From the NCBI RefSeq assembly GCF_009914755.1, contig NC_060944.1: a stretch of 64,000 nt of DNA; one strand, written 5' to 3'. The position numbers and the translations under genes are program-made. Below are positions 3,395-50,701 of the stretch, piece by piece (positions within the stretch are counted from its first letter, which is position 1; every line of letters begins with the position of its first letter). Under the pieces are notes generated by a model, which ran no database searches, was not told the DNA's origin, and saw nothing but the letters and a program-made list of their open reading frames with translations. The DNA is from the human T2T-CHM13v2.0 reference genome, Homo sapiens.

Positions 3395-6300
3395 CAGCTA
3401 CTCATAAAAAGTGTCTACCATCTGGTCGCTTCACTCCAAGAGATCCACGTAAGAAAATTTAAAAGAAGATATACAAGATAATAAGTGATAAACATTTATA
3501 GATAGTTATAATAAAATGGATCATAAGAAAGGTGAAAGGCTGTAGAAACTGATTAAATAAAAATAACGTTATCTACAAATTCAGAGAATATACCATTCAT
3601 ACTAAAAATTAAGTGCATATTCAACTTATGTTAAAAATGACACTGTAACCACTCTTCTACTCTCGATGAAGTCAACTTTTCTGTCAAATTTAAAGGATGA
3701 TACTGTACAGCATTTCTCACTAACCATATTTTTTCAGCCTTTTTCTTTCTACTCTAACAGCCCTTTAATGTTCTCAAAATTCTTGGCTGATGCCTCTTAC
3801 TTAATGCACCAAGCATTCAACAGTCAGCTACTTGGAATGTGACGGGTATGGTGGATATGGATGTTTCTTCAGCCATTAAGGACATCAATTGTAACTGAAC
3901 AGTAACCACAGACAAAAAGGCTTATGAGATAATAACTAGTTCTCCACAATTTAACACTCTCAGTGAAAACCACCCATGACTTAATAATGTAACATTCTTT
4001 ATTTTGGTAGAAATATGAAAAAAATCAGATTCATAATACATTTGTCTTGAATTTTTTTTACTCATAAAGAAGAATTTTATCAGGAACGCTCATGACTTCT
4101 ACTGCCTCAGCTTTCTCTTAGGCATGATTTTAGATGAAAAATGTTTCTTAAACGAGGTTTTATATTGATCTCCCATTATACTCAAGTAGTCCCTAACATA
4201 AAAAACTCACAAGTACATAGTAAGTTTGAAGATAACAGATTTGTAAGTTTGATTTTCAATAGAAAGTACTTTATCCTAATTTACTTAGAAGAGAATAGCA
4301 TATTTAGAAATGAAAAATAGTTTTCACTTTTTAATGCAACTAGTTAAAAATAGTTAACTGATTCTCATAAGGGGAAGGTATTTTGTAGTACTTAAGACAA
4401 AAATGATATACTTGTAAATATTACAGATACATTTTAAAGTTGACAGAGTATTCTCAGCCATTTTAAGTTATAATCTGTCAAAGACAAAATTATGCCACTA
4501 CAGAGGATCCAAGATTATAGGTCTGATCTGTCAGTCATGAAGGTTTATAACAAATAGTATAGATTGAAGCAGATCAAGCATGAAGTCCAAGAAAATCGTC
4601 TAATGCTCTGTTGTATTGGCAAATTCCAAAGGTGTGGAGACTATAAAATTAGAAAGTGGCAAGTGAATAGTTTGAGAGACTGTGGGCTCATCAATGGAGA
4701 CATGACATAAACAACAGAATTACTTTACAAAAGGAAAATGGACATTTTCCAGAGACTATCATCCCACCTCTAATTGCTTTAACTAGTACACAAATGACTT
4801 CCTAAGATGACAAGTATCAATCTTTCATCAACCTTTCTCTGCAGTGATGCATAAAACAGATGATGTTAAGATATCCAATGGAAGTGTCAGGGTCAATAAC
4901 ATAGGACATAATAATATAAAATCACTGCAGTACTTATTCCACTGTTAGAAAAAAAGATAACAAAAAATAACATACCAGATTACTGGCGTTGAGGTTGAGC
5001 ATGACTTTGCAGGAATGACCAGGGCCTAAAATATGCCTCTCATTTATTTCAATGAGTATTTATGAAGCCAAAACTCTCTTCATATATTAGACAAGGTGTT
5101 GGAGAAAAAAGAAAGAAAAAGAGACGTGTGGTCCCTCCCTGCTGTCACAAAGTTTACTCAAGTAACGTGTACTCAAGCAAGGAAGCAGCATAGCATATTG
5201 CAATAGTGTTTCAAAAGGAAAATACAAGTTAACTGCAGCAGCACATTTAGGAGAAAACAATTTTCCAGGAAGGATTTTTGGAGACATAGTCATTACAGGA
5301 GTAATTACTCATCATACTTAATACATACATACATTTATAATAGGTTGTACTTTTGCATACTACAATTCAAATGTGCCAATTTATTTAGCCTATAAGAGTT
5401 TATTTTCTTTAGTCTATATGACTTTATCTTGCCCCATTACTCCTATTATTTAAAAAAAGAGAAGAAAAATACATACATACATATGCATATACACATCTAT
5501 ATGTATATGATAACTCAGTCTCTACTGATTTAAAAATAGTTAATACTAATCAATTCAAATATTCTCTCAAAGTCAACCAAAATTAATAGCCTCTGCTCAG
5601 AAATCATACATAAATCTAAAGTCTTCACACTTATGCTGTACCTTCATGAATTTTTGTTTATGTAAATCAATATTTTATGCCAAAAATAGAATGCTTCTTA
5701 GAAAATAATTGAAAGAAGGAAATTCATTGTATAACAGAAGAGTAGCAGTTGATTGAGACAAAGAGATTGTTATATGCATGAGTTAAAATGCTTAATTGTG
5801 TTGGATCCTATATCAGAACTAATTTACTCTCTTTTTAGGTTAGCATTGAGGTGAATCCCTTGATGATAAAGCCATGTCATCACCTGTTTTACTCTAAACA
5901 AAGACATTTATAAAAATGGTAAACCTGATTATATTTCATAGTATTCAGAAAGATTCTTGTGTAAGATTATTAATTTTTACAATGCTCCTATTGTCAGCTG
6001 AGGTAAAATTAATTAGAACAACCGTATCCTAGGAAAATAGAGTCAATGAGCAAAGATTATCACATATTTAAAGGAAATAAGAGCAGATGAAAGCTGTTCC
6101 TGAGGAATGAAGTAAAGAGAGTTTGAGACGGTGGAAGATGGAACAGGAAGAAAAAAATAAGATAAAATGGTGACATCTCTTAAAATTGTTTTGGAAGGGT
6201 CATTTACACACTATGGATGAATAGCAACTTATTCCTAGAAAATGCTTGTTGCCTAGGTTGTGCAAATTCTCAGTTATGGATAGATTTAGTTATTGATCAA

Positions 6301-7669
6301 TCATACTGCTTTCGAGAATTTTAATCTGTTTAGATTTCTTAAAAAGTTCCCATGTATATAAACAAAGTCCATTTACTTGATGGCATTATATTAGCCTTAG
6401 GATATTTGGAGGACTTGCATACTTGGAGACAAGGGCATTCCAGATGTCAGATGTTTTCAGGACAACCCTCTCACCCAGTGAGACAGATTGTATGTTTTTT
6501 CCACTGTGACTTGCTCCGATTTATATTTCCTTCAGCCCAGAAAGGATTATTGTAATATATCAAGTTCATCAGCATTTTTTAAATTCTTACATTAATCTAT
6601 TTAAGTTGAGGTTCTATTTTACCTCAAAGATATCTATTACCTGTATTTATCTATCCAATCGAGTTCTTGCCACATATATATACTTTTTTAATTCTGCAAT
6701 TCCTCTGAAGTTTTTAAGAGATCTTTGCTTGCTGGTTAGAATAATCCTCAAGTTTTTCTAATCATAGCACTTTTATTTTCTCATTCTTCTGATTAAAATT
6801 CTATCCTCTTCATTTGCAAAGGTGAATATATTTGGAACTGTCATCTCCAATGAATGAAAAGCAATTAGAAACCCTAGAAAAGATATTTGAAATAATTATT
6901 ACAAACCATTTTATAATTTGTTAATTTTTCCAGATTTCTATAAAAAGCAAATGCAAATAGGAAAGAAACAAGAACTGGGCTTTCATATATTTTCCAATCT
7001 GAGCTGACTTCAAGACATGAAGATTAACTAGTGGTAAACAAGAGAAAATAAATTTAAAATGAGGACAAATGTAGAAGTTATCAAAGATTACAATTTTTTA
7101 AAATCTCAAAGCTTTTGTTGAAAGAGGTTCCCATCAAAGGAATTTGTATCAAAAAGAAAATGAATAAAGCTGAAATGTAATTAGAATCAATGAGAAAATA
7201 TCAGAGCTGGAAGGACATTAATAAATCCTTAGTAAAAATAGCATTATACAGATGAAAAAAAGTCAGGGGTCAAGAAACTTAATTGATTTGTCTAAGGTCA
7301 TGTTATTTGTCAATTTATTTCCAAGACCAGTGTTTCTCCAAATAGAGATTAATGAAAAGAAGAAAGAAAAAAGAAGAAAAAGCAGTTCTCCACATTTTTT
7401 TTTTTTTTCTGCCTGGAGGTCGTGATTCATTTGGTGTGGAATGGAGCATTCACATTTCCTGTTTCCTTGGCTAACAGCAGAAAACTATTAAATGGAAGAA
7501 AATAAGATGTGAACTGAAGTGGCAGAAAAAAGTAAATGAAAAAAAAACAGAACAGGAGACTTTGTTTTTGGCAGTTTTTTAATTATACATATATCTCCCT
7601 CAGCAGCCACATGAGGAGGGCCGGCTGGGTCTTTCTCCATTCTTTGGGCGAGTATATTTCAAAATATGT

Positions 7670-42234: not shown

Positions 42235-45088
<2,854 letters not shown>

Positions 45089-45513
45089 AAAACAAGAAAA
45101 TAATAATAATTTTGTCAATGATAGTTAACTATATGTTAGTCACTAACACTATGGCAGTTACCTTCAAATTCATATTTCTAATATTTCCAATATCTTCATA
45201 TTTATATATCTAATTCATATTTGAACCCAGCTCTAATTTAGGAAGTTCTCTTTTTTCTTTTAGAAATTAAGGCATAAAGTGTCACGTGACTTGCACAAGA
45301 TTGCACCACTAGTAAACTTAAAAATATAGTTTACTTGCCTACTGTCTCAATGTTTTAGTGATTTATTGATCATGCACAATTATTTTTGAAAACAGAAATT
45401 CATTTAGCATACCACATTTCAAGATCCATTGGTAGAAGCCACTTTATTAGCTTAATCAACAAAAATGTCTAGAAAATTTGAGCTTTTATTAACTGATAAC
45501 ATATTAGAAGTTA

Positions 45514-46151: not shown

Positions 46152-47751
46152 TTTATAAATATTTAACTTTTATGTATATTTAACTGCTATACCATAATTG
46201 ACTAGTTTGTATGTTAATATTAGTAGGTAATAATAATATTTATATTTCCTCCATAGGTAGCTTCTGGGGGCATTTCTGCCTGGTAAATTTTATTCTTTAA
46301 TGACAAATACTAAAGTAAGTAACTTTAAAATATTATTGAGAATTTTTTTTCTATTGATGGGACACTGAATTTGTAGGTGGAAATAAAAACCTAGCTTTTT
46401 ACTAAACTTAATTTTTTATTTAAACACAACTCAAAATGTAAATATAAAATTAAGAATTTCCAAAATTAAACTTAGTTTTAGGAACTCACATAAGCAAGTG
46501 TAATACTGAAGAGCAAAGAAACTGTGCTCTATAAAAAAAAATTACAAGTAATTCTTGAAATCTAAGGGCTAATTTGTGAAGTAAATTTGGAAGCTACTTT
46601 ATGCTGTAGCTCCATCCTAGAGACCGAGAGAACTGCACTAGGAAAACCTGTTCAACCTTTTTTTAACCAGAAATTCTTTCTTTCTCCAGAAATCCTTTTC
46701 AGGTAATGCCTAATGATATCTCATTGAACATGTATTAGAAATTGTAGTTTAATTTTTAATTAAATAATTCAGTGAAAATATATTAATTGTAAAGATAAAT
46801 TTTAACACATATGGGAATACTAGACTTACGGTGGTCATCAACCCAAAATGCTACAAAATTACATAGAATGGTTAGTTTGGCAAAAAATAAATATCACCAC
46901 TAGCACCAAAAACCTAGGTTTCAAAAAGAAATAAAAGAAGCATTCCAAAATGTTAAAAATTTTTCATTTATCTACTTTCTAAATGTTCTTTGAAACACTT
47001 CTTATGTCATCATAATTTTGAAGTTTAAAAGTAAAGAAATAGTTATTCTAGTTAATATACTACCTTAAAGTTACTCTGGCTCACAAACAGAACAAAGCAA
47101 AGCATGACTTGACAGCAGTCGAATTACGGGAAATTGAAGCTAAACGAAATTGGATACCTCACCTCATCTAAACTCCTTACTTTATAAGAAGGAAAAGCAT
47201 CACAAAATGTTGAGGCCATTTAACTTAAAGTCATCAGGTGAGTTAGAGATAATTTGAGACCACTGCTTTTTTTCTCTTTGTTACTATTCTCTTATGAAGT
47301 TTTGCCTGAAAACAGGTCTACTAAAAATATAAGAATTTGTAATGAAGATGAACATATATCATTGCCTTTCTGCTTAGGATTGTTCAATATTTTCCCATTG
47401 ATAATATATAAAATCCTACCTACTTTGACCTCCTCTCCCACCATTTCTTTGCTCTCTATCTCCTAGAACTTCATTCTTGACTCCAAAGCTGCACCCTCCT
47501 GCATCAGTTTCTTTTGTTTGAAATCTTCAGCTCTTCATAAATTTCATCCAGCAAACTCCTATTTATCCTTTAACTCCCTATTATTTTTTCTTACAGTGCC
47601 ACATTTTCCTTCATTAGCACATATCCAATTTAAAGTTACATAGTTTGAGTTTTTGCTTGACTTTCTGTTTCTGCACTAAAGCATAAGCTCCACAAAAGCA
47701 AGTATCATGTCTGATTTAACAGGGTATATTCTATTCTTTTTTTTCCACAAG

Positions 47752-49600
47752 GCGGTGCCCGGTTCGGTCCCAGACGCGGCCACCAACCGACGTAAAGCCG
47801 GTGAGCCGCTCGGGGAGGAGAGAGGATCGGCGGGCGGCGGGCGGGGAAGGGGGCGCAGACAGGCAAGGGCCGGGGACCGCGAGGGCAAGGGCACCTGGGA
47901 GCCCGCAGAGGGGCGGCTGAGGGAGAAACCTCAGGCATGGCCGGGCCACCAGGAAAACACGGCCGCGGGATCCCACCGCCACAGACACGAGGGCGGTCCC
48001 GCGGCGCCCCGCCTGGGACGCCGGAAGGCCCTCGGCACCCACCAAGACCTGCCTCACGAGCCCCTGGTCCCGCCACCGGGGCCCCGAAGCGACCACAGCC
48101 ACAAACTCAACGCCAGGGCCACATCGCTCGTGATTCTCGTCCATCCTCCGACCCGGTCCCGCTCCGGGAGACCGGCGCGCCCCCACCGTGGGACGCTTTC
48201 CCAGGGCCAGGCGGCCCGACCACGTGCCACGCAAACGCCGTCGTCCGCACCGGTCGCGACTCGGCAAGGGAGCGGGCGGAGAGCTGACTCGCGGCGGAGG
48301 GGGGTCACTCGCCGGACGGAACGCTGCGCGCAGCCATCGCTCGCTGTCAGCCGCGTCCCAACCCGCTAGGACGCTGGGCCCTGCCGGCGGGATCCTCCCC
48401 TTACTCGGAAAGGGGAGGCGCCGGCCACAGTAGGCGACGAGCCGCGCTCGGCCACCACCGCGGTGGCCGGCGGAACCCTCGCTCTCCCCCCGTCACCCCG
48501 TCGAGGGGGAAGCTGAGGAGGGTTCCTCTGCAAGCGAGTCGCTACTGCAGCGCTACCATAACGGAGAGAGAGACAGAGGCGGCAGGCCGGGGGATCCCGT
48601 ACCCCAAGGCACACCTCTTGGATCGCTAGAGAAGGCTTTCTCACCGAGGATGGGTCACACTCCCCACCCGCCAGCCGCCCCTCGTGGGGCCCGAGGGGCC
48701 CGCAGAGGCGCTCAGGGAGGCCTGGGGAAGGGAGGGGGCCTGTGGTACCAGGAAAAACCTGCGTGCGGCAACCTTGAGCGTTCGCGGTCAGGGCGGGGAC
48801 CGGCAGGTGCGAGCGTGAGCGCAACTCCACAAGCCCCCGCCTCCCACCCCCCCCCCCACCCCGTCCACCCGCCTCTTTTCTTCAGAGGCAAAGCACCTCC
48901 GAGTAAACCCACACACGACCGGTCGGAGGCAGAACGGTAGCCCCTCGGCGGCCGGCCGGCGCACGCGTCACCAGCCCAAGCCCACCGCGATCGCTCACAG
49001 GGCCCGTGCGCACCCGCCAGAGGGGAGCACCGGACGTGCGCTCGCCGGACCAGGCGGGCGCCCTTCCCCGCGTGGGAGGGGCGCGTCTCGTCTCACTCAA
49101 CCGCCTCGGACCCCACACCGACGAGCTCCCTCAGGACCCACGCGCGGACACCGAGGCGCCGACCGGAGGAGGGGGCGCTGGGGGTGGGAACGACACACCA
49201 CCGCTCGGCCTCGGGAACCTGAGGGACAACCCGGAGCGCTCCAGGAGCACCGCAAAGGCCCAGGGGGAGCCAACGCTCGCGCAAACTCCCCGGGAGGGCA
49301 GCACGACGGGCCGGCGGGACAGCACCCCCACCGCTGCGGAGGGGGGCCGCCCGCAAGTCGACAACCACAGGAGGCGAGAGCGAGGGGTGCCTGCCGCGTC
49401 AGAGGACCCCCCGACCCACCCCGCGAGGCAGAAGGCGGGGGCGGGACAGCGAGGTCAGGCCGGGTTCCGCACCCCATGCCTTCCCAACGCACCACCCGCA
49501 GGCGAGGAAGAGGAGAGACAAGGGGCCCCCGCGGGCGGGACGAGAAGAAGGGTCCCATTCGCCACGAATGTCCGCCCCTCGCCCGTCGCGGCTCGGACAC
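47752..49600. promoter_or_regulatory. CpG island, probable Pol II promoter of the miR-663a host transcript
   Basis: Very high GC and CpG density with GC boxes (GGGCGG) in otherwise CpG-depleted DNA. Confidence 0.75.
47936..48028 (-). ncRNA. MIR663A: miR-663a precursor hairpin (mature 47993-48014)
   Basis: Minus strand reads CCTTCCGGCGTCCCAGGCGGGGCGCCGCGGGACCGCCCTCGTGTCTGTGGCGGTGGGATCCCGCGGCCGTGTTTTCCTGGTGGCCCGGCCATG (93 nt), matching recalled hsa-mir-663a including the CCTTCC and CATG ends that differ from rDNA and mir-663b. Confidence 0.9.
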
Positions 49601-50701
49601 GGCCAGGGAGAGCATGACATCACCATATTCTATTCTTACAAGAGTGCTGCCACGTAAGTGTCAATGAATGTTTGTGAAATAAATGAGGGACTAAAGGAGT
49701 GATCGAACAAATAAAAATAAGTTATCTGTGTGTATTGTATGTGTGAATAAGATTTTGAGTTTGGCCAAGGCAGTTAATCACATATTAACAACTCTTTAGA
49801 TACATAAGGTTTATAGCAATGAGGTACAAAATTGGTTCAACACCAAATTCTAAGATGAAACAAGGTTTATGTTCAGAAATATAGTGTTACTTTTTCTAAT
49901 ATCATTTGCCCTCCAACTATCAGCATGACACATGCAAACCATTGATACGTGTTTTTTTTTTTTGTATTGAAGATTCCACATGAAGAAAAATTATTATATT
50001 TCCAATAGGAAGTCCTCTTCTAAATGACAACAAATCTGAGGGTGAACACATTTGTTAAAAAGAGAGAGATTAAAAAGTTAAGATGCTGTTTGTACAGTAT
50101 ATAACTGAACAAAGTTGTATCTAGCAATTTGACAAGAAAGGTAAAACAGAATATTAACCTCAGCACACAAGTTTAGCTAATGATCTGGAACGGGGAGTTG
50201 TGAGTAGAGAGGAGGACAAAGATGAAAGACAACCATTTATCCCAAGTTTCTTTCCAAAGATGAAAAATAAAAAACCCTCTTAGTAATGTTTTTTAAATTC
50301 TAACTACTTTCAAGAACACATCAATAAGATATAGAGAGATAACAATCAAGTTGGACATTAACTTAAAAGTCAGATGACTTTTTAAGCATAAGTAACTTAG
50401 AACTGTAAAGTAAAAAACACTAAATGTCAATGACTTTAAAGTGGATACTGAAGTAAAAAAAAAACCTTCTATTAAAAACTAGACTATATGCAGTAACTTA
50501 TGTAGAAAGCTTAGCATAAATATTTATACAAAATTGCCCTACCATATTTTATTAAAATATTACATTATAAATTAAGAGAAAATAATTTTAAAAATGAGTT
50601 ATATTTTAGGCAATTTTTCTCAAAATGAGTTTCATAAATTGATATGGTTATTAGCATAGTAATTTCAATAATAGGAACAAAGAAACCAAATGAAAACCTA
50701 A

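What the first reader, a model, noticed from the sequence alone, without database searches (positions are those of the whole stretch)
47726..49637. A Pol I pre-rRNA spacer fragment inserted as an L1-processed retrocopy (TSD, untemplated A-tail, EN site)
Seen: the 13-mer ATATTCTATTCTT flanks both ends (47726-47738, 49625-49637). On the RNA-sense (minus) strand the ETS match ends ...GGGCACCGCCTTGTGG and runs into A6-8. The nick context TCTT/AC resembles the L1 endonuclease motif TTTT/AA, and the empty site restores an L2 tail. Known: rDNA continues GC-rich at that point, so the As are untemplated; Pol I transcripts lack poly(A) except as oligoadenylated decay intermediates (TENT4/PAPD5-exosome type). 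Inference: this island is not a DNA-level rDNA duplication but an RNA-decay intermediate captured by L1 ORF2p.
Basis: partly seen in the sequence, partly recalled or inferred. Interest (0 to 1): 0.85.

Follow-up and report, generated by a model that had tools for sequence, protein, structure and literature searches.

The report
rRNA spacer retrocopy hosting MIR663A
A 1.9-kb piece of the ribosomal RNA precursor's 5' spacer was copied from RNA back into chromosome 20 by the L1 retrotransposon machinery, and that copy now carries the MIR663A microRNA hairpin and the first exon of its host gene.

Summary
An exact 13-bp repeat (47726-47738, 49625-49637) brackets a 1,880-bp GC-rich block (47745-49624). 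On the minus strand this block is 5'ETS +440..+2324 of the genome's own rDNA units (88% identity), followed by six A's that rDNA lacks.

New here is a chr3 paralogue of the surrounding ≥23-kb segment. It carries the empty site: one copy of the 13-mer (12 of 13 bases), no T/A run, no insert. The 13-mer is therefore a true target-site duplication and the A-run came with the insert. The whole 5'ETS has no A-run of 5 or more, and there is no poly(A) hexamer near the end.

L1-type target-primed reverse transcription of a pre-rRNA fragment is well supported. That the template was an oligoadenylated decay or abortive intermediate is plausible but inferred.

Also new:
- The 5' end lies inside the published site 01 (A') cleavage window.
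- Polarised substitutions put the insertion at roughly 8-25 Myr, close to the chr3/chr20 duplication.
- The copy has stayed a CpG island and supplies the MIR663A hairpin and MIR663AHG exon 1.

The homology of miR-663a to the 5'ETS is in print. My searches did not find the retrocopy origin. Primate orthologues could not be checked.

The parts
47726..47738 (.). Left copy of the 13-bp target-site duplication ATATTCTATTCTT. Its 3' end (TCTT) is the inferred first-strand nick and primer end on the + strand.
   Evidence: Exact repeat. A single copy, ATATTCTATTCCT, sits at the chr3 empty site.
47739..47744 (-). T6 on the + strand, which is A6 at the 3' end of the inserted RNA sense strand. It is templated neither by rDNA nor by the target site.
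   Evidence: Sequence. Unmatched in rDNA. Absent from the chr3 empty site. No A-run of 5 or more anywhere in the 5'ETS.
47745..49624 (-). Retrocopy body, equal to pre-rRNA 5'ETS +440..+2324. It spans the A0 region uncut and lacks the promoter, the first 439 nt and everything downstream of +2324.
   Evidence: 88% identity to rDNA units. Coordinates come from the transcription start read and the 18S start, with mapping.
49625..49637 (.). Right copy of the 13-bp target-site duplication, followed by ACAAGAG (ATAAGAG in the chr3 paralogue).
47939..48028 (-). mir-663 hairpin (RefSeq MIR663A 47936-48028), equal to 5'ETS +2039..+2128. 87 consecutive bases are identical to rDNA.
   Evidence: Rfam RF00957 scores 103.7 bits here and 102.5 bits in rDNA. 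Perfect run 48025-47939.
48873..48983 (-). MIR663AHG exon 1 and transcription start (hub annotation), equal to 5'ETS +1093..+1206. It is on the same strand as the spacer sense.
   Evidence: Hub gene table. Coordinate mapping.
48124..48214 (-). A 91-nt stretch identical to rDNA (5'ETS +1848..+1938, 13 CpGs). Its significance is unknown.
   Evidence: Only 2 of 5000 shuffles give a run this long.

Best explanation
This is a processed retrocopy of a fragment of the RNA polymerase I precursor rRNA, made by L1-type target-primed reverse transcription.

Shown: a 1,880-nt stretch of 5'ETS (+440..+2324), in RNA sense on the minus strand. It ends in a short A-run that neither rDNA nor the target site encodes. 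It sits between 13-bp duplications of a target that is seen unoccupied in a chr3 paralogue.

Inferred mechanism: the L1 endonuclease nicked the + strand at ATTCTT/AC. The exposed ...TT-3'OH annealed to A's at the 3' end of a spacer RNA. ORF2p copied the RNA up to, or nearly up to, its 5' end. A second nick 13 bp away produced the duplication.

Inferred template: a pre-rRNA already cut at site 01 (A'), not cut at A0, ending prematurely at +2324, and carrying a short post-transcriptional A tail. This is the kind of RNA that nucleolar surveillance (PAPD5/TRAMP with the exosome) handles.

Afterwards: the copy stayed largely CpG-rich. Today it provides the CpG-island start and exon 1 of MIR663AHG, and the MIR663A hairpin.
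For: Target-site duplication and empty site:
- The 13-mer is exact at both ends.
- Each flank finds only itself and one chr3 locus (2 of 2 candidates in each search), at 95% and 93% identity. The two chr3 matches abut with an 11-nt overlap.
- chr3 reads ...GGGT ATATTCTATTCCT ATAAGAG..., with no T-run and no insert.
- The paralogy runs over at least window 36351-59839.

Donor:
- 39 of 39 scored rDNA hits align to query 1-1880 of 1886 at 88%.
- rDNA continues GGCGCC... after the junction.
- The junction plus A-run occurs in no rDNA array. There are 15 hits at up to 1 mismatch, all elsewhere, and the one other exact hit has a non-ETS context.
- The 5'ETS has no A-run of 5 or more, and there is no AATAAA-type hexamer in the last 81 nt.

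Insert content: it lies wholly inside the transcribed spacer, with no promoter or IGS.

5' end: +439/440 lies inside the site 01 window proposed by nanopore mapping (C423^U424, G429^U430, G443^A444). Those dinucleotides match this rDNA unit at zero offset (Table 1 passage of PMC13201660).

L1 activity at the time: a 5'-truncated L1 with a 13-bp duplication entered the same duplicated segment, and is also absent from chr3.

Literature for the template:
- PAPD5 polyadenylates abortive Pol I transcripts, and the A'-to-28S truncated 37S* depends on PAPD5 and the exosome (passages in PMC3964915 and PMC4361047).
- Polyadenylated 5'ETS and ITS1 species exist in human cells (PMC12678568).
- Polyadenylated rRNA fragments exist, including 3 ESTs ending in spacer (PMC1474067).
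Against: - The A-run is only 6-8 nt. L1 ORF2p is thought to need a poly(A) tract (recalled, not checked here), and the neighbouring L1 insertion kept a longer, degenerate A-rich tail.
- The nick site matches the TTTT/AA consensus at only 4 of 6 positions.
- +2324 is not a known processing site, and folding around it gave nothing distinctive.
- The 5' end near site 01 is a post-hoc coincidence test: 21 of 2,324 positions, about 1%.
- The empty site is a paralogue, not an orthologue.
- No primate genomes could be examined.
- Nothing in the sequence identifies the enzyme that added the A's.
Confidence: 0.8

Rival explanations
1. An L1 retrocopy made by template switching. ORF2p began reverse transcription on the poly(A) tail of another RNA (L1, Alu or mRNA), copied only a few A's, then jumped to the 3' end of a non-adenylated 5'ETS fragment. 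On this reading the A-run does not record adenylation of the Pol I transcript.
For: L1 forms chimeric insertions with nuclear and nucleolar RNAs, including 28S rRNA (n = 18), U3 and 5S, attributed to template switching or ligation (passages of bioRxiv 10.1101/2025.02.02.635956). The A-run is very short. Every retrocopy hallmark fits this reading equally well.
Against: The described chimeras keep a recognisable L1 partner at the 3' side. Here nothing but A's lies between the spacer and the duplication. Adenylated 5'ETS RNAs are documented, so a jump is not needed.
Confidence: 0.12
2. A DNA-level insertion. A piece of rDNA was captured at a staggered chromosome break in the pericentromere, with filler bases, as for other dispersed rDNA pseudogenes.
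For: Degraded rDNA pieces are scattered in the human genome (PMC5381670, abstract and passages). A second piece on chr20 (C20:29955365-29961222, running from ETS +840 into ITS2) has no A-run and no duplication of 10 nt or more.
Against: A 13-bp duplication of a target seen empty in the paralogue. A homopolymer A-run exactly at the RNA-sense 3' end, absent from both donor and target. A pyrimidine/purine nick context. An insert confined to transcribed sequence.
Confidence: 0.04
3. A retrocopy of a Pol II transcript of rDNA with canonical cleavage and polyadenylation, rather than of a Pol I precursor.
For: Pol II signal and small sense transcripts within the 5'ETS are reported (passages of bioRxiv 10.1101/2025.11.10.687711).
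Against: No AATAAA, ATTAAA, AGTAAA or TATAAA in the last 81 nt of either the copy or rDNA. The 5' end coincides with the site 01 window of Pol I precursor processing. The fragment spans 1.9 kb of sense spacer.
Confidence: 0.04

Closest known systems
Human 28S rRNA retropseudogenes and orphons (Wang, Pirtle & Pirtle 1997; Munro et al. 1986; known to me only as cited in bioRxiv 10.1101/2025.02.02.635956)
   Same: A Pol I product copied into the genome by the L1 machinery, without an L1 partner.
   Different: Those copies derive from mature 28S rRNA. This one consists only of spacer that is normally destroyed in the nucleolus, so the template must have been a precursor or a decay or abortive intermediate.
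[quoted passage not shown]
   Same: L1 reverse transcriptase acting on nuclear or nucleolar RNAs. 7-15-bp duplications and endonuclease motifs are present.
   Different: No L1 (or other) sequence is fused to the spacer here. The 28S segments in those chimeras are 50-482 nt, whereas this copy is 1,880 nt.
snoRNA retroposons (Weber 2006, PMC1687206; search listing and abstract start only)
   Same: Nucleolar non-mRNA sequences mobilised as retrocopies.
   Different: snoRNAs are stable functional RNAs. Here the template is a discarded spacer fragment.
Dispersed DNA-level rDNA pseudogenes (Robicheau et al. 2017, PMC5381670)
   Same: rDNA-derived sequence outside the arrays, in a pericentromeric region.
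   Different: That paper's text has 0 occurrences of retrotranspos-, 'target site', 'poly', 'chr20' or 'chromosome 20'. This copy has retrocopy hallmarks that the second chr20 fragment lacks.
rmiR-663 / miR-663a paralogy (Yoshikawa & Fujii 2016, PMC4969525; Van Nostrand et al. 2020, PMC7137325; bioRxiv 10.1101/2025.11.10.687711)
   Same: These papers already state that the miR-663a sequence lies in the 5'ETS (2049-2071 in their reference). They also state that chr20 miR-663a is one of several genomic paralogues.
   Different: The passages read give no extent, boundaries, mechanism or age for the chr20 copy.
PAPD5/TRAMP-adenylated abortive or aberrant Pol I transcripts (Shcherbik et al. 2010 as cited in PMC3964915 and PMC4361047; 37S* in PMC3964915)
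   Same: A precursor cut at A' and truncated at its 3' end, with non-templated A's and no poly(A) signal.
   Different: Those are transient RNAs seen in cells, whereas this would be a genomic fossil of one. Enzyme dependence cannot be read from DNA. The Shcherbik paper itself was not held.

Membership tests
L1-mediated processed retrocopy (target-primed reverse transcription) | Target-site duplication of about 7-20 bp flanking the insert exactly | tested here: met
   13 bp, identical at 13 of 13 positions, placed exactly at both homology boundaries.
L1-mediated processed retrocopy (target-primed reverse transcription) | Unoccupied target with a single copy of the duplicated sequence | tested here: met
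   The chr3 paralogue has one 13-mer (12 of 13 identical), no insert and no T/A run. This is a paralogue, not an orthologue.
L1-mediated processed retrocopy (target-primed reverse transcription) | 3' A-tail not encoded in the donor | tested here: met
   A6 (up to A8). rDNA continues GGCGCC. The 5'ETS has no A-run of 5 or more. No array copy carries the junction plus A's. The tail is unusually short.
L1-mediated processed retrocopy (target-primed reverse transcription) | First-strand nick at an L1 endonuclease-type site (TTTT/AA and variants) | tested here: inconclusive
   TCTT/AC matches 4 of 6 positions, with four pyrimidines followed by a purine. This is compatible but not diagnostic.
L1-mediated processed retrocopy (target-primed reverse transcription) | Insert limited to transcribed sequence of the donor, in one RNA sense | tested here: met
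   +440..+2324 of a 3,655-nt 5'ETS. The promoter and pRNA region, and the IGS, are absent.
Oligoadenylated nucleolar surveillance substrate (PAPD5/TRAMP-exosome) | Non-templated A's at a 3' end that is not a canonical poly(A) site | tested here: met
   No poly(A) hexamer in the last 81 nt, and the A's are absent from the donor.
Oligoadenylated nucleolar surveillance substrate (PAPD5/TRAMP-exosome) | Addition of the A's by PAPD5/TENT4, and a 3' end matching an observed abortive or decay end | not testable with these tools
   This needs 3'-end sequencing of cellular RNA. The literature shows only that such species exist.
mir-663 (Rfam RF00957) | Score above the family gathering threshold | tested here: met
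   103.7 bits against a threshold of 75 at 47939-48028(-). The rDNA copy scores 102.5 bits.
DNA-level dispersed rDNA pseudogene | rDNA block without retrocopy hallmarks, often spanning several rDNA parts or the IGS | tested here: not met
   The hallmarks are present here. The contrast case at C20:29.96 Mb spans ETS, 18S, ITS1, 5.8S and ITS2 and has neither an A-run nor a duplication of 10 nt or more.

The most novel reading that the evidence does not exclude
The locus is a genomic fossil of a nucleolar surveillance substrate. The substrate would be a pre-rRNA cut at site 01, not yet cut at A0, ended prematurely at +2324 and given a short A tail. L1 ORF2p captured it roughly 8-25 Myr ago. This Pol I spacer copy was then re-used as a Pol II CpG-island promoter, first exon and microRNA hairpin (MIR663AHG and MIR663A). 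If so, L1 can sample adenylated nucleolar decay intermediates, and a much-studied human microRNA gene was born from a discarded rRNA spacer by retroposition.
Probability: 0.4. Interest if true: 0.65.

Novelty: new member of a known kind. Interest (0 to 1): 0.5.

Why it matters
- **Origin of a studied gene.** It gives a defined origin, boundaries and rough age to the MIR663A/MIR663AHG locus, which is widely studied in cancer. The hairpin, the promoter CpG island and exon 1 are all second-hand rRNA spacer.

- **Mapping artefacts.** The copy has 87- and 91-nt stretches identical to about 220 highly transcribed rDNA units, so it is a sink for mis-mapped 5'ETS reads wherever rDNA is missing from the reference.
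  - This may bear on reports of 'superabundant' Pol II at miR-663A, which its authors have already reassigned to rDNA.
  - It may bear on the nucleolar 45S-proximity signal of MIR663AHG (PMC10730139).
  - It may bear on the A-to-G 'variants' with more than 1,000 reads in MIR663AHG (PMC8632122). There are 32 positions where this copy has A and rDNA has G.

- **L1 biology.** It extends the known L1 template range from mature rRNA to a spacer-only precursor fragment. That implies L1 had access to nucleolar RNA carrying short A tails.

- **rDNA evolution.** The copy is a dated outgroup for human 5'ETS evolution. The polarised counts suggest the array lineage changed about 2.5 times faster than the copy, and towards G+C.

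Tried and rejected

- **Fold around +2324.** I folded the rDNA RNA there to look for a structure that could stall Pol I or the exosome. The end falls between two predicted helices in a uniformly GC-rich fold, which is not informative.

- **Other dispersed 5'ETS copies.**
  - The DNA search scored only 40 of 251 candidates.
  - The Rfam search scored 58.
  - A 28-mer pattern gave 239 matches (8 forward, 231 reverse), but only 100 were listed, all of them in the C13-C15 arrays.
  - The non-array copies, including MIR663B, could therefore not be listed or checked for duplications.

- **The one other exact genomic hit to the junction plus A's (C1:38097044).** Checked and rejected as chance. Its context is not ETS, and its only rDNA matches are to repeats in the spacer upstream of the promoter, which I took to be Alu-like without checking.

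- **The second chr20 fragment as donor.** Rejected. It starts at +840, so it lacks +440..+839 of the copy, and it is 82-83% identical to both rDNA and the copy.

- **Selection on the chr20 hairpin.** The perfect 87-nt run is non-random (0 of 5000 shuffles). However, with only about 1.5% change on the chr20 branch, the run mostly reflects conservation in the rDNA lineage, so I do not claim selection on the copy.

- **Papers and claims not checked.** Shcherbik et al. 2010 could not be read. The L2-tail claim was not tested because no repeat library was available.
Full report
**1. What is in the sequence.**

Reading 47500-49900 shows ...CAGGGT ATATTCTATTCTT TTTTTT CCACAAGGCGGTGCCCGG... at the left edge. 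At the right edge it shows ...CATGACATCACC ATATTCTATTCTT ACAAGAGTG....

The 13-mer is exact at 47726-47738 and 49625-49637. At up to one mismatch the window holds 4 hits against 0.38 expected, and 0 of 100 shuffles reach 4 (also family D14).

Between the two copies G+C is 0.63-0.77, against 0.21-0.42 outside.

**2. What the insert is.**

I searched the window's own genome with the insert in RNA sense. Of 251 candidates, 40 were scored: the window itself and 39 rDNA-array hits on C13 and C14. All 39 are 88% identical over query 1-1880 of 1886, so the last six bases (AAAAAA) are unmatched. A blastn run gives 88.4% over 1,923 columns.

In one rDNA unit (L013/L014) Rfam places:
- the pRNA/promoter region at 5056-5145;
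- 18S from 8848;
- 5.8S and 28S downstream;
- a mir-663 hit at 7231-7320.

The transcription start, recognised by me from memory as the G of ...ttattGCTGACACGC..., is at L013:5193. That gives a 3,655-nt 5'ETS.

The copy therefore equals 5'ETS +440..+2324. The T before it could also come from the RNA, giving +439. ATAT against ATGT is a 3-of-4 near-microhomology at the 5' junction.

rDNA continues GGCGCCGCCGCC after +2324. The whole 5'ETS is 5.6% A and has no A-run of 5 or more. There is no run of 4 or more between +2200 and +2450, and no AATAAA-type hexamer in the last 81 nt of either the copy or rDNA.

A 17-base pattern covering the junction plus four A's has 15 hits in the genome at up to 1 mismatch (control pattern: 3). 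None lies in an rDNA array. The only other exact hit (C1) is in unrelated sequence.

**3. The empty site.**

Searching the genome with each flank alone gave two places each (2 of 2 candidates scored): the window and one chr3 locus.
- Left flank: 95% identity over 1-837 of 839, at C3:76011574-76012406.
- Right flank: 93% identity over 1-836 of 836, at C3:76010744-76011584.

The two chr3 matches overlap by 11 bases. The sequence there is ...TTTAACAGGGT ATATTCTATTCCT ATAAGAGTGCTGCC.... It has one copy of the 13-mer (12 of 13 identical), no T-run and no insert.

The paralogy is collinear over at least window 36351-59839, which is the limit of the 20 kb I fetched, at 91-95% blast identity. Only two chr20-only blocks stand out: 42263-45090 and the spacer copy.

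The first block is a 5'-truncated L1 with an A-rich tail and a 13-bp duplication, AAAAAAGAAAAGA. L1 was therefore inserting into this very segment after the duplication.

The empty site removes the two main doubts about the observation. The 13-mer is a real target duplication, and the T6/A6 did not pre-exist in the target.

**4. Mechanism.**

The anatomy is that of target-primed reverse transcription. The cDNA strand is the + strand, running ...ATTCTT-3' then T6 then antisense spacer.

The first nick was therefore at TCTT/AC, which matches 4 of the 6 positions of TTTT/AA. The second nick was 13 bp upstream.

These steps are inferred from the anatomy and from established knowledge of L1. They were not observed.

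**5. What the template was.**

The 5' end (+439/440) lies inside the site 01 (A') window. Older reports place it at about C414-C416 and G420-U422. Nanopore mapping proposes C423^U424, G429^U430 and G443^A444 (Table 1 passage of PMC13201660). Those three dinucleotides occur at exactly those positions in this unit.

The copy starts 10 nt after the U430 end and includes 4 nt upstream of the A444 end. Under uniform 5' truncation, landing in that 21-nt window has a chance of about 1% (21 of 2,324). This is a post-hoc figure.

The A0 region (about +1609 to +1672 in the same table) is spanned uncut.

The 3' end at +2324 is not a known processing site. Folding gave nothing distinctive there.

Published RNAs of this general kind exist:
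- 37S* runs from A' to within 28S and needs PAPD5 and the exosome for turnover (PMC3964915 passages).
- PAPD5 polyadenylates abortive Pol I transcripts in mouse cells (PMC4361047 passage; the primary paper was not held).
- Polyadenylated 5'ETS and ITS1 species are seen in human cells (PMC12678568).
- Polyadenylated rRNA fragments exist, including three ESTs ending in spacer (PMC1474067).

I therefore favour an adenylated, 01-cut, prematurely ended precursor as the template. The sequence cannot exclude a jump from another RNA's poly(A) tail, or a longer tail that shrank. The neighbouring L1 kept a longer, degenerate A-rich tail. That hints, from a single comparison, that the spacer tail was short from the start.

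**6. Age and later history.**

Insert against rDNA:
- 1,848 aligned columns, 172 mismatches (90.7% identity) and 69 gap columns.
- p-distance at non-CpG sites: 6.4%.
- p-distance at CpG sites: 14.6%.
- CpG observed/expected: 0.88 in the copy and 1.01 in rDNA.

Flanks, chr20 against chr3, in four blocks:
- p-distance at non-CpG sites: 3.2-3.7%.
- p-distance at CpG sites: 35-47%.

The copy has therefore kept its CpGs far better than its surroundings, as expected of a germline-unmethylated CpG island.

I used the older, independent rDNA fragment at C20:29.96 Mb as an outgroup over +840..+2324. This gave 1,413 ungapped columns, of which 964 are non-CpG. At non-CpG sites:
- 14 changes are unique to the copy (1.45%; Poisson 95% interval 0.8-2.4%).
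- 35 are unique to rDNA (3.6%).
- 55 are unique to the outgroup.

The directions of change support this polarisation:
- The copy changed G/C to A/T 32 times and A/T to G/C 4 times.
- The rDNA lineage changed G/C to A/T 16 times and A/T to G/C 34 times.

The copy's branch (about 1.5%) is close to half the flank distance (about 1.7%). The insertion therefore followed the chr3/chr20 duplication closely.

With a recalled neutral rate of about 1e-9 per site per year, this gives about 15 Myr, and roughly 8-25 Myr from the interval. That would place the event in the ape lineage. The estimate is rough and needs orthologues.

Two stretches are identical to rDNA: 91 nt (48214-48124, +1848..+1938) and 87 nt (48025-47939, the mir-663 hairpin). 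A longest run this long appears in 2 of 5000 shuffles, and a second-longest run this long in 0 of 5000. Given the short chr20 branch, this mainly shows constraint in the rDNA lineage.

By the hub annotation, MIR663AHG starts at 48983 and its exon 1 (48873-48983) lies in the copy, at +1093..+1206. MIR663A lies at +2039..+2128.

**7. Comparison with what is known.**

In print:
- miR-663a lies in the 5'ETS (PMC4969525 Table 1, at 2049-2071; bioRxiv 10.1101/2025.11.10.687711).
- chr20 miR-663a is one of several genomic paralogues of 'rmiR-663' (PMC7137325).
- 28S retropseudogenes and 28S/L1 chimeras exist (bioRxiv 10.1101/2025.02.02.635956).
- Dispersed rDNA pseudogenes exist (PMC5381670). Its text has 0 occurrences of retrotranspos-, 'target site', 'poly', 'chr20' or 'chromosome 20'.

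I did not find in print the retrocopy nature, boundaries, empty site or age of the MIR663A locus, or any retrocopy made only of Pol I spacer. One search was too broad to be useful. RetroSeeker (PMC11727581) mentions only mitochondrial rRNA. Supplements were not opened and could hold such a locus in a table.

**8. A contrast case.**

A second mir-663 hit on chr20 (C20:29959979-29960068) belongs to a 5.9-kb rDNA piece. It runs from ETS +840 into ITS2 (about +7,700), with an internal gap, at 80-93% identity. It has no A-run at its end and no flanking repeat of 10 nt or more. It is a separate event without retrocopy hallmarks, and it cannot be the donor because it lacks +440..+839.

**9. Verdict.**

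Its finer point, an oligoadenylated decay intermediate, is plausible but unproven.

The mechanism is a known one acting on an unusual template. It matters mainly for the origin and the read-mapping of MIR663A/MIR663AHG, and as evidence that L1 can reach nucleolar RNA.

Noticed in passing
window 36351-59839 (and beyond) vs G000:C3:76001501-76021500: A segmental duplication of at least 23 kb between this chr20 pericentromeric segment and chr3. It is collinear and in the opposite orientation, with 91-95% blast identity. The non-CpG distance is 3.2-3.7% and the CpG-site distance 35-47%. Its full extent was not mapped.
   Followed up: partly
window 42263-45090: A chr20-only, 5'-truncated L1 on the + strand. 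It has a degenerate A-rich tail and a 13-bp duplication of AAAAAAGAAAAGA, a sequence that is single-copy in the chr3 paralogue. It shows that L1 was active in this segment after the duplication.
   Followed up: partly
G000:C20:29955365-29961222 (loci L028, L037, L038): A second rDNA-derived block on chr20, on the far side of the centromere. It runs from 5'ETS +840 through 18S, ITS1 and 5.8S into ITS2 at 80-93% identity, with an internal gap (+2571..+3200). It abuts an Alu-like sequence and has no A-run or flanking repeat of 10 nt or more. It carries a mir-663 hairpin scoring 102.5 bits.
   Followed up: partly
window 47745-49624: The copy keeps a CpG observed/expected ratio of 0.88 (218 CpGs against 278 in rDNA). 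CpG sites in the flanks differ at 35-47% between paralogues. The insert has therefore behaved as a protected CpG island since insertion.
   Followed up: partly
rDNA unit L013, 5'ETS +840..+2324: Polarised with the older chr20 fragment, the rDNA array lineage changed about 2.5 times as much as the retrocopy at non-CpG sites (35 against 14 of 964). It changed mostly from A/T to G/C (34 against 16), which is consistent with GC-biased turnover in the arrays.
   Followed up: partly
whole genome G000: A 28-mer from the hairpin has 239 matches at up to 3 mismatches (8 forward, 231 reverse). Only 100 were listed, all in the arrays on C13-C15. Several non-array 5'ETS copies must therefore exist, presumably including MIR663B, but they could not be listed. 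The hits at C14:9673921 and C22:5581124 (102.4 bits) were not examined.
   Followed up: no
window 48840-48865: The copy has a run of about 21 extra G/C bases (a C-run on the + strand) relative to rDNA at about ETS +1225. This is the largest indel in the alignment and is probably slippage. It lies just downstream of the annotated MIR663AHG exon 1, whose donor reads GAG|GC in this assembly where rDNA has GAG|GT.
   Followed up: no
window 47745-49624 vs published data sets: Reports of nucleolar 45S-proximity signal for MIR663AHG (PMC10730139) and of A-to-G RNA 'variants' with more than 1,000 reads in MIR663AHG (PMC8632122) could be 5'ETS reads mapped to this copy. There are 32 positions where the copy has A and rDNA has G.
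   Followed up: no
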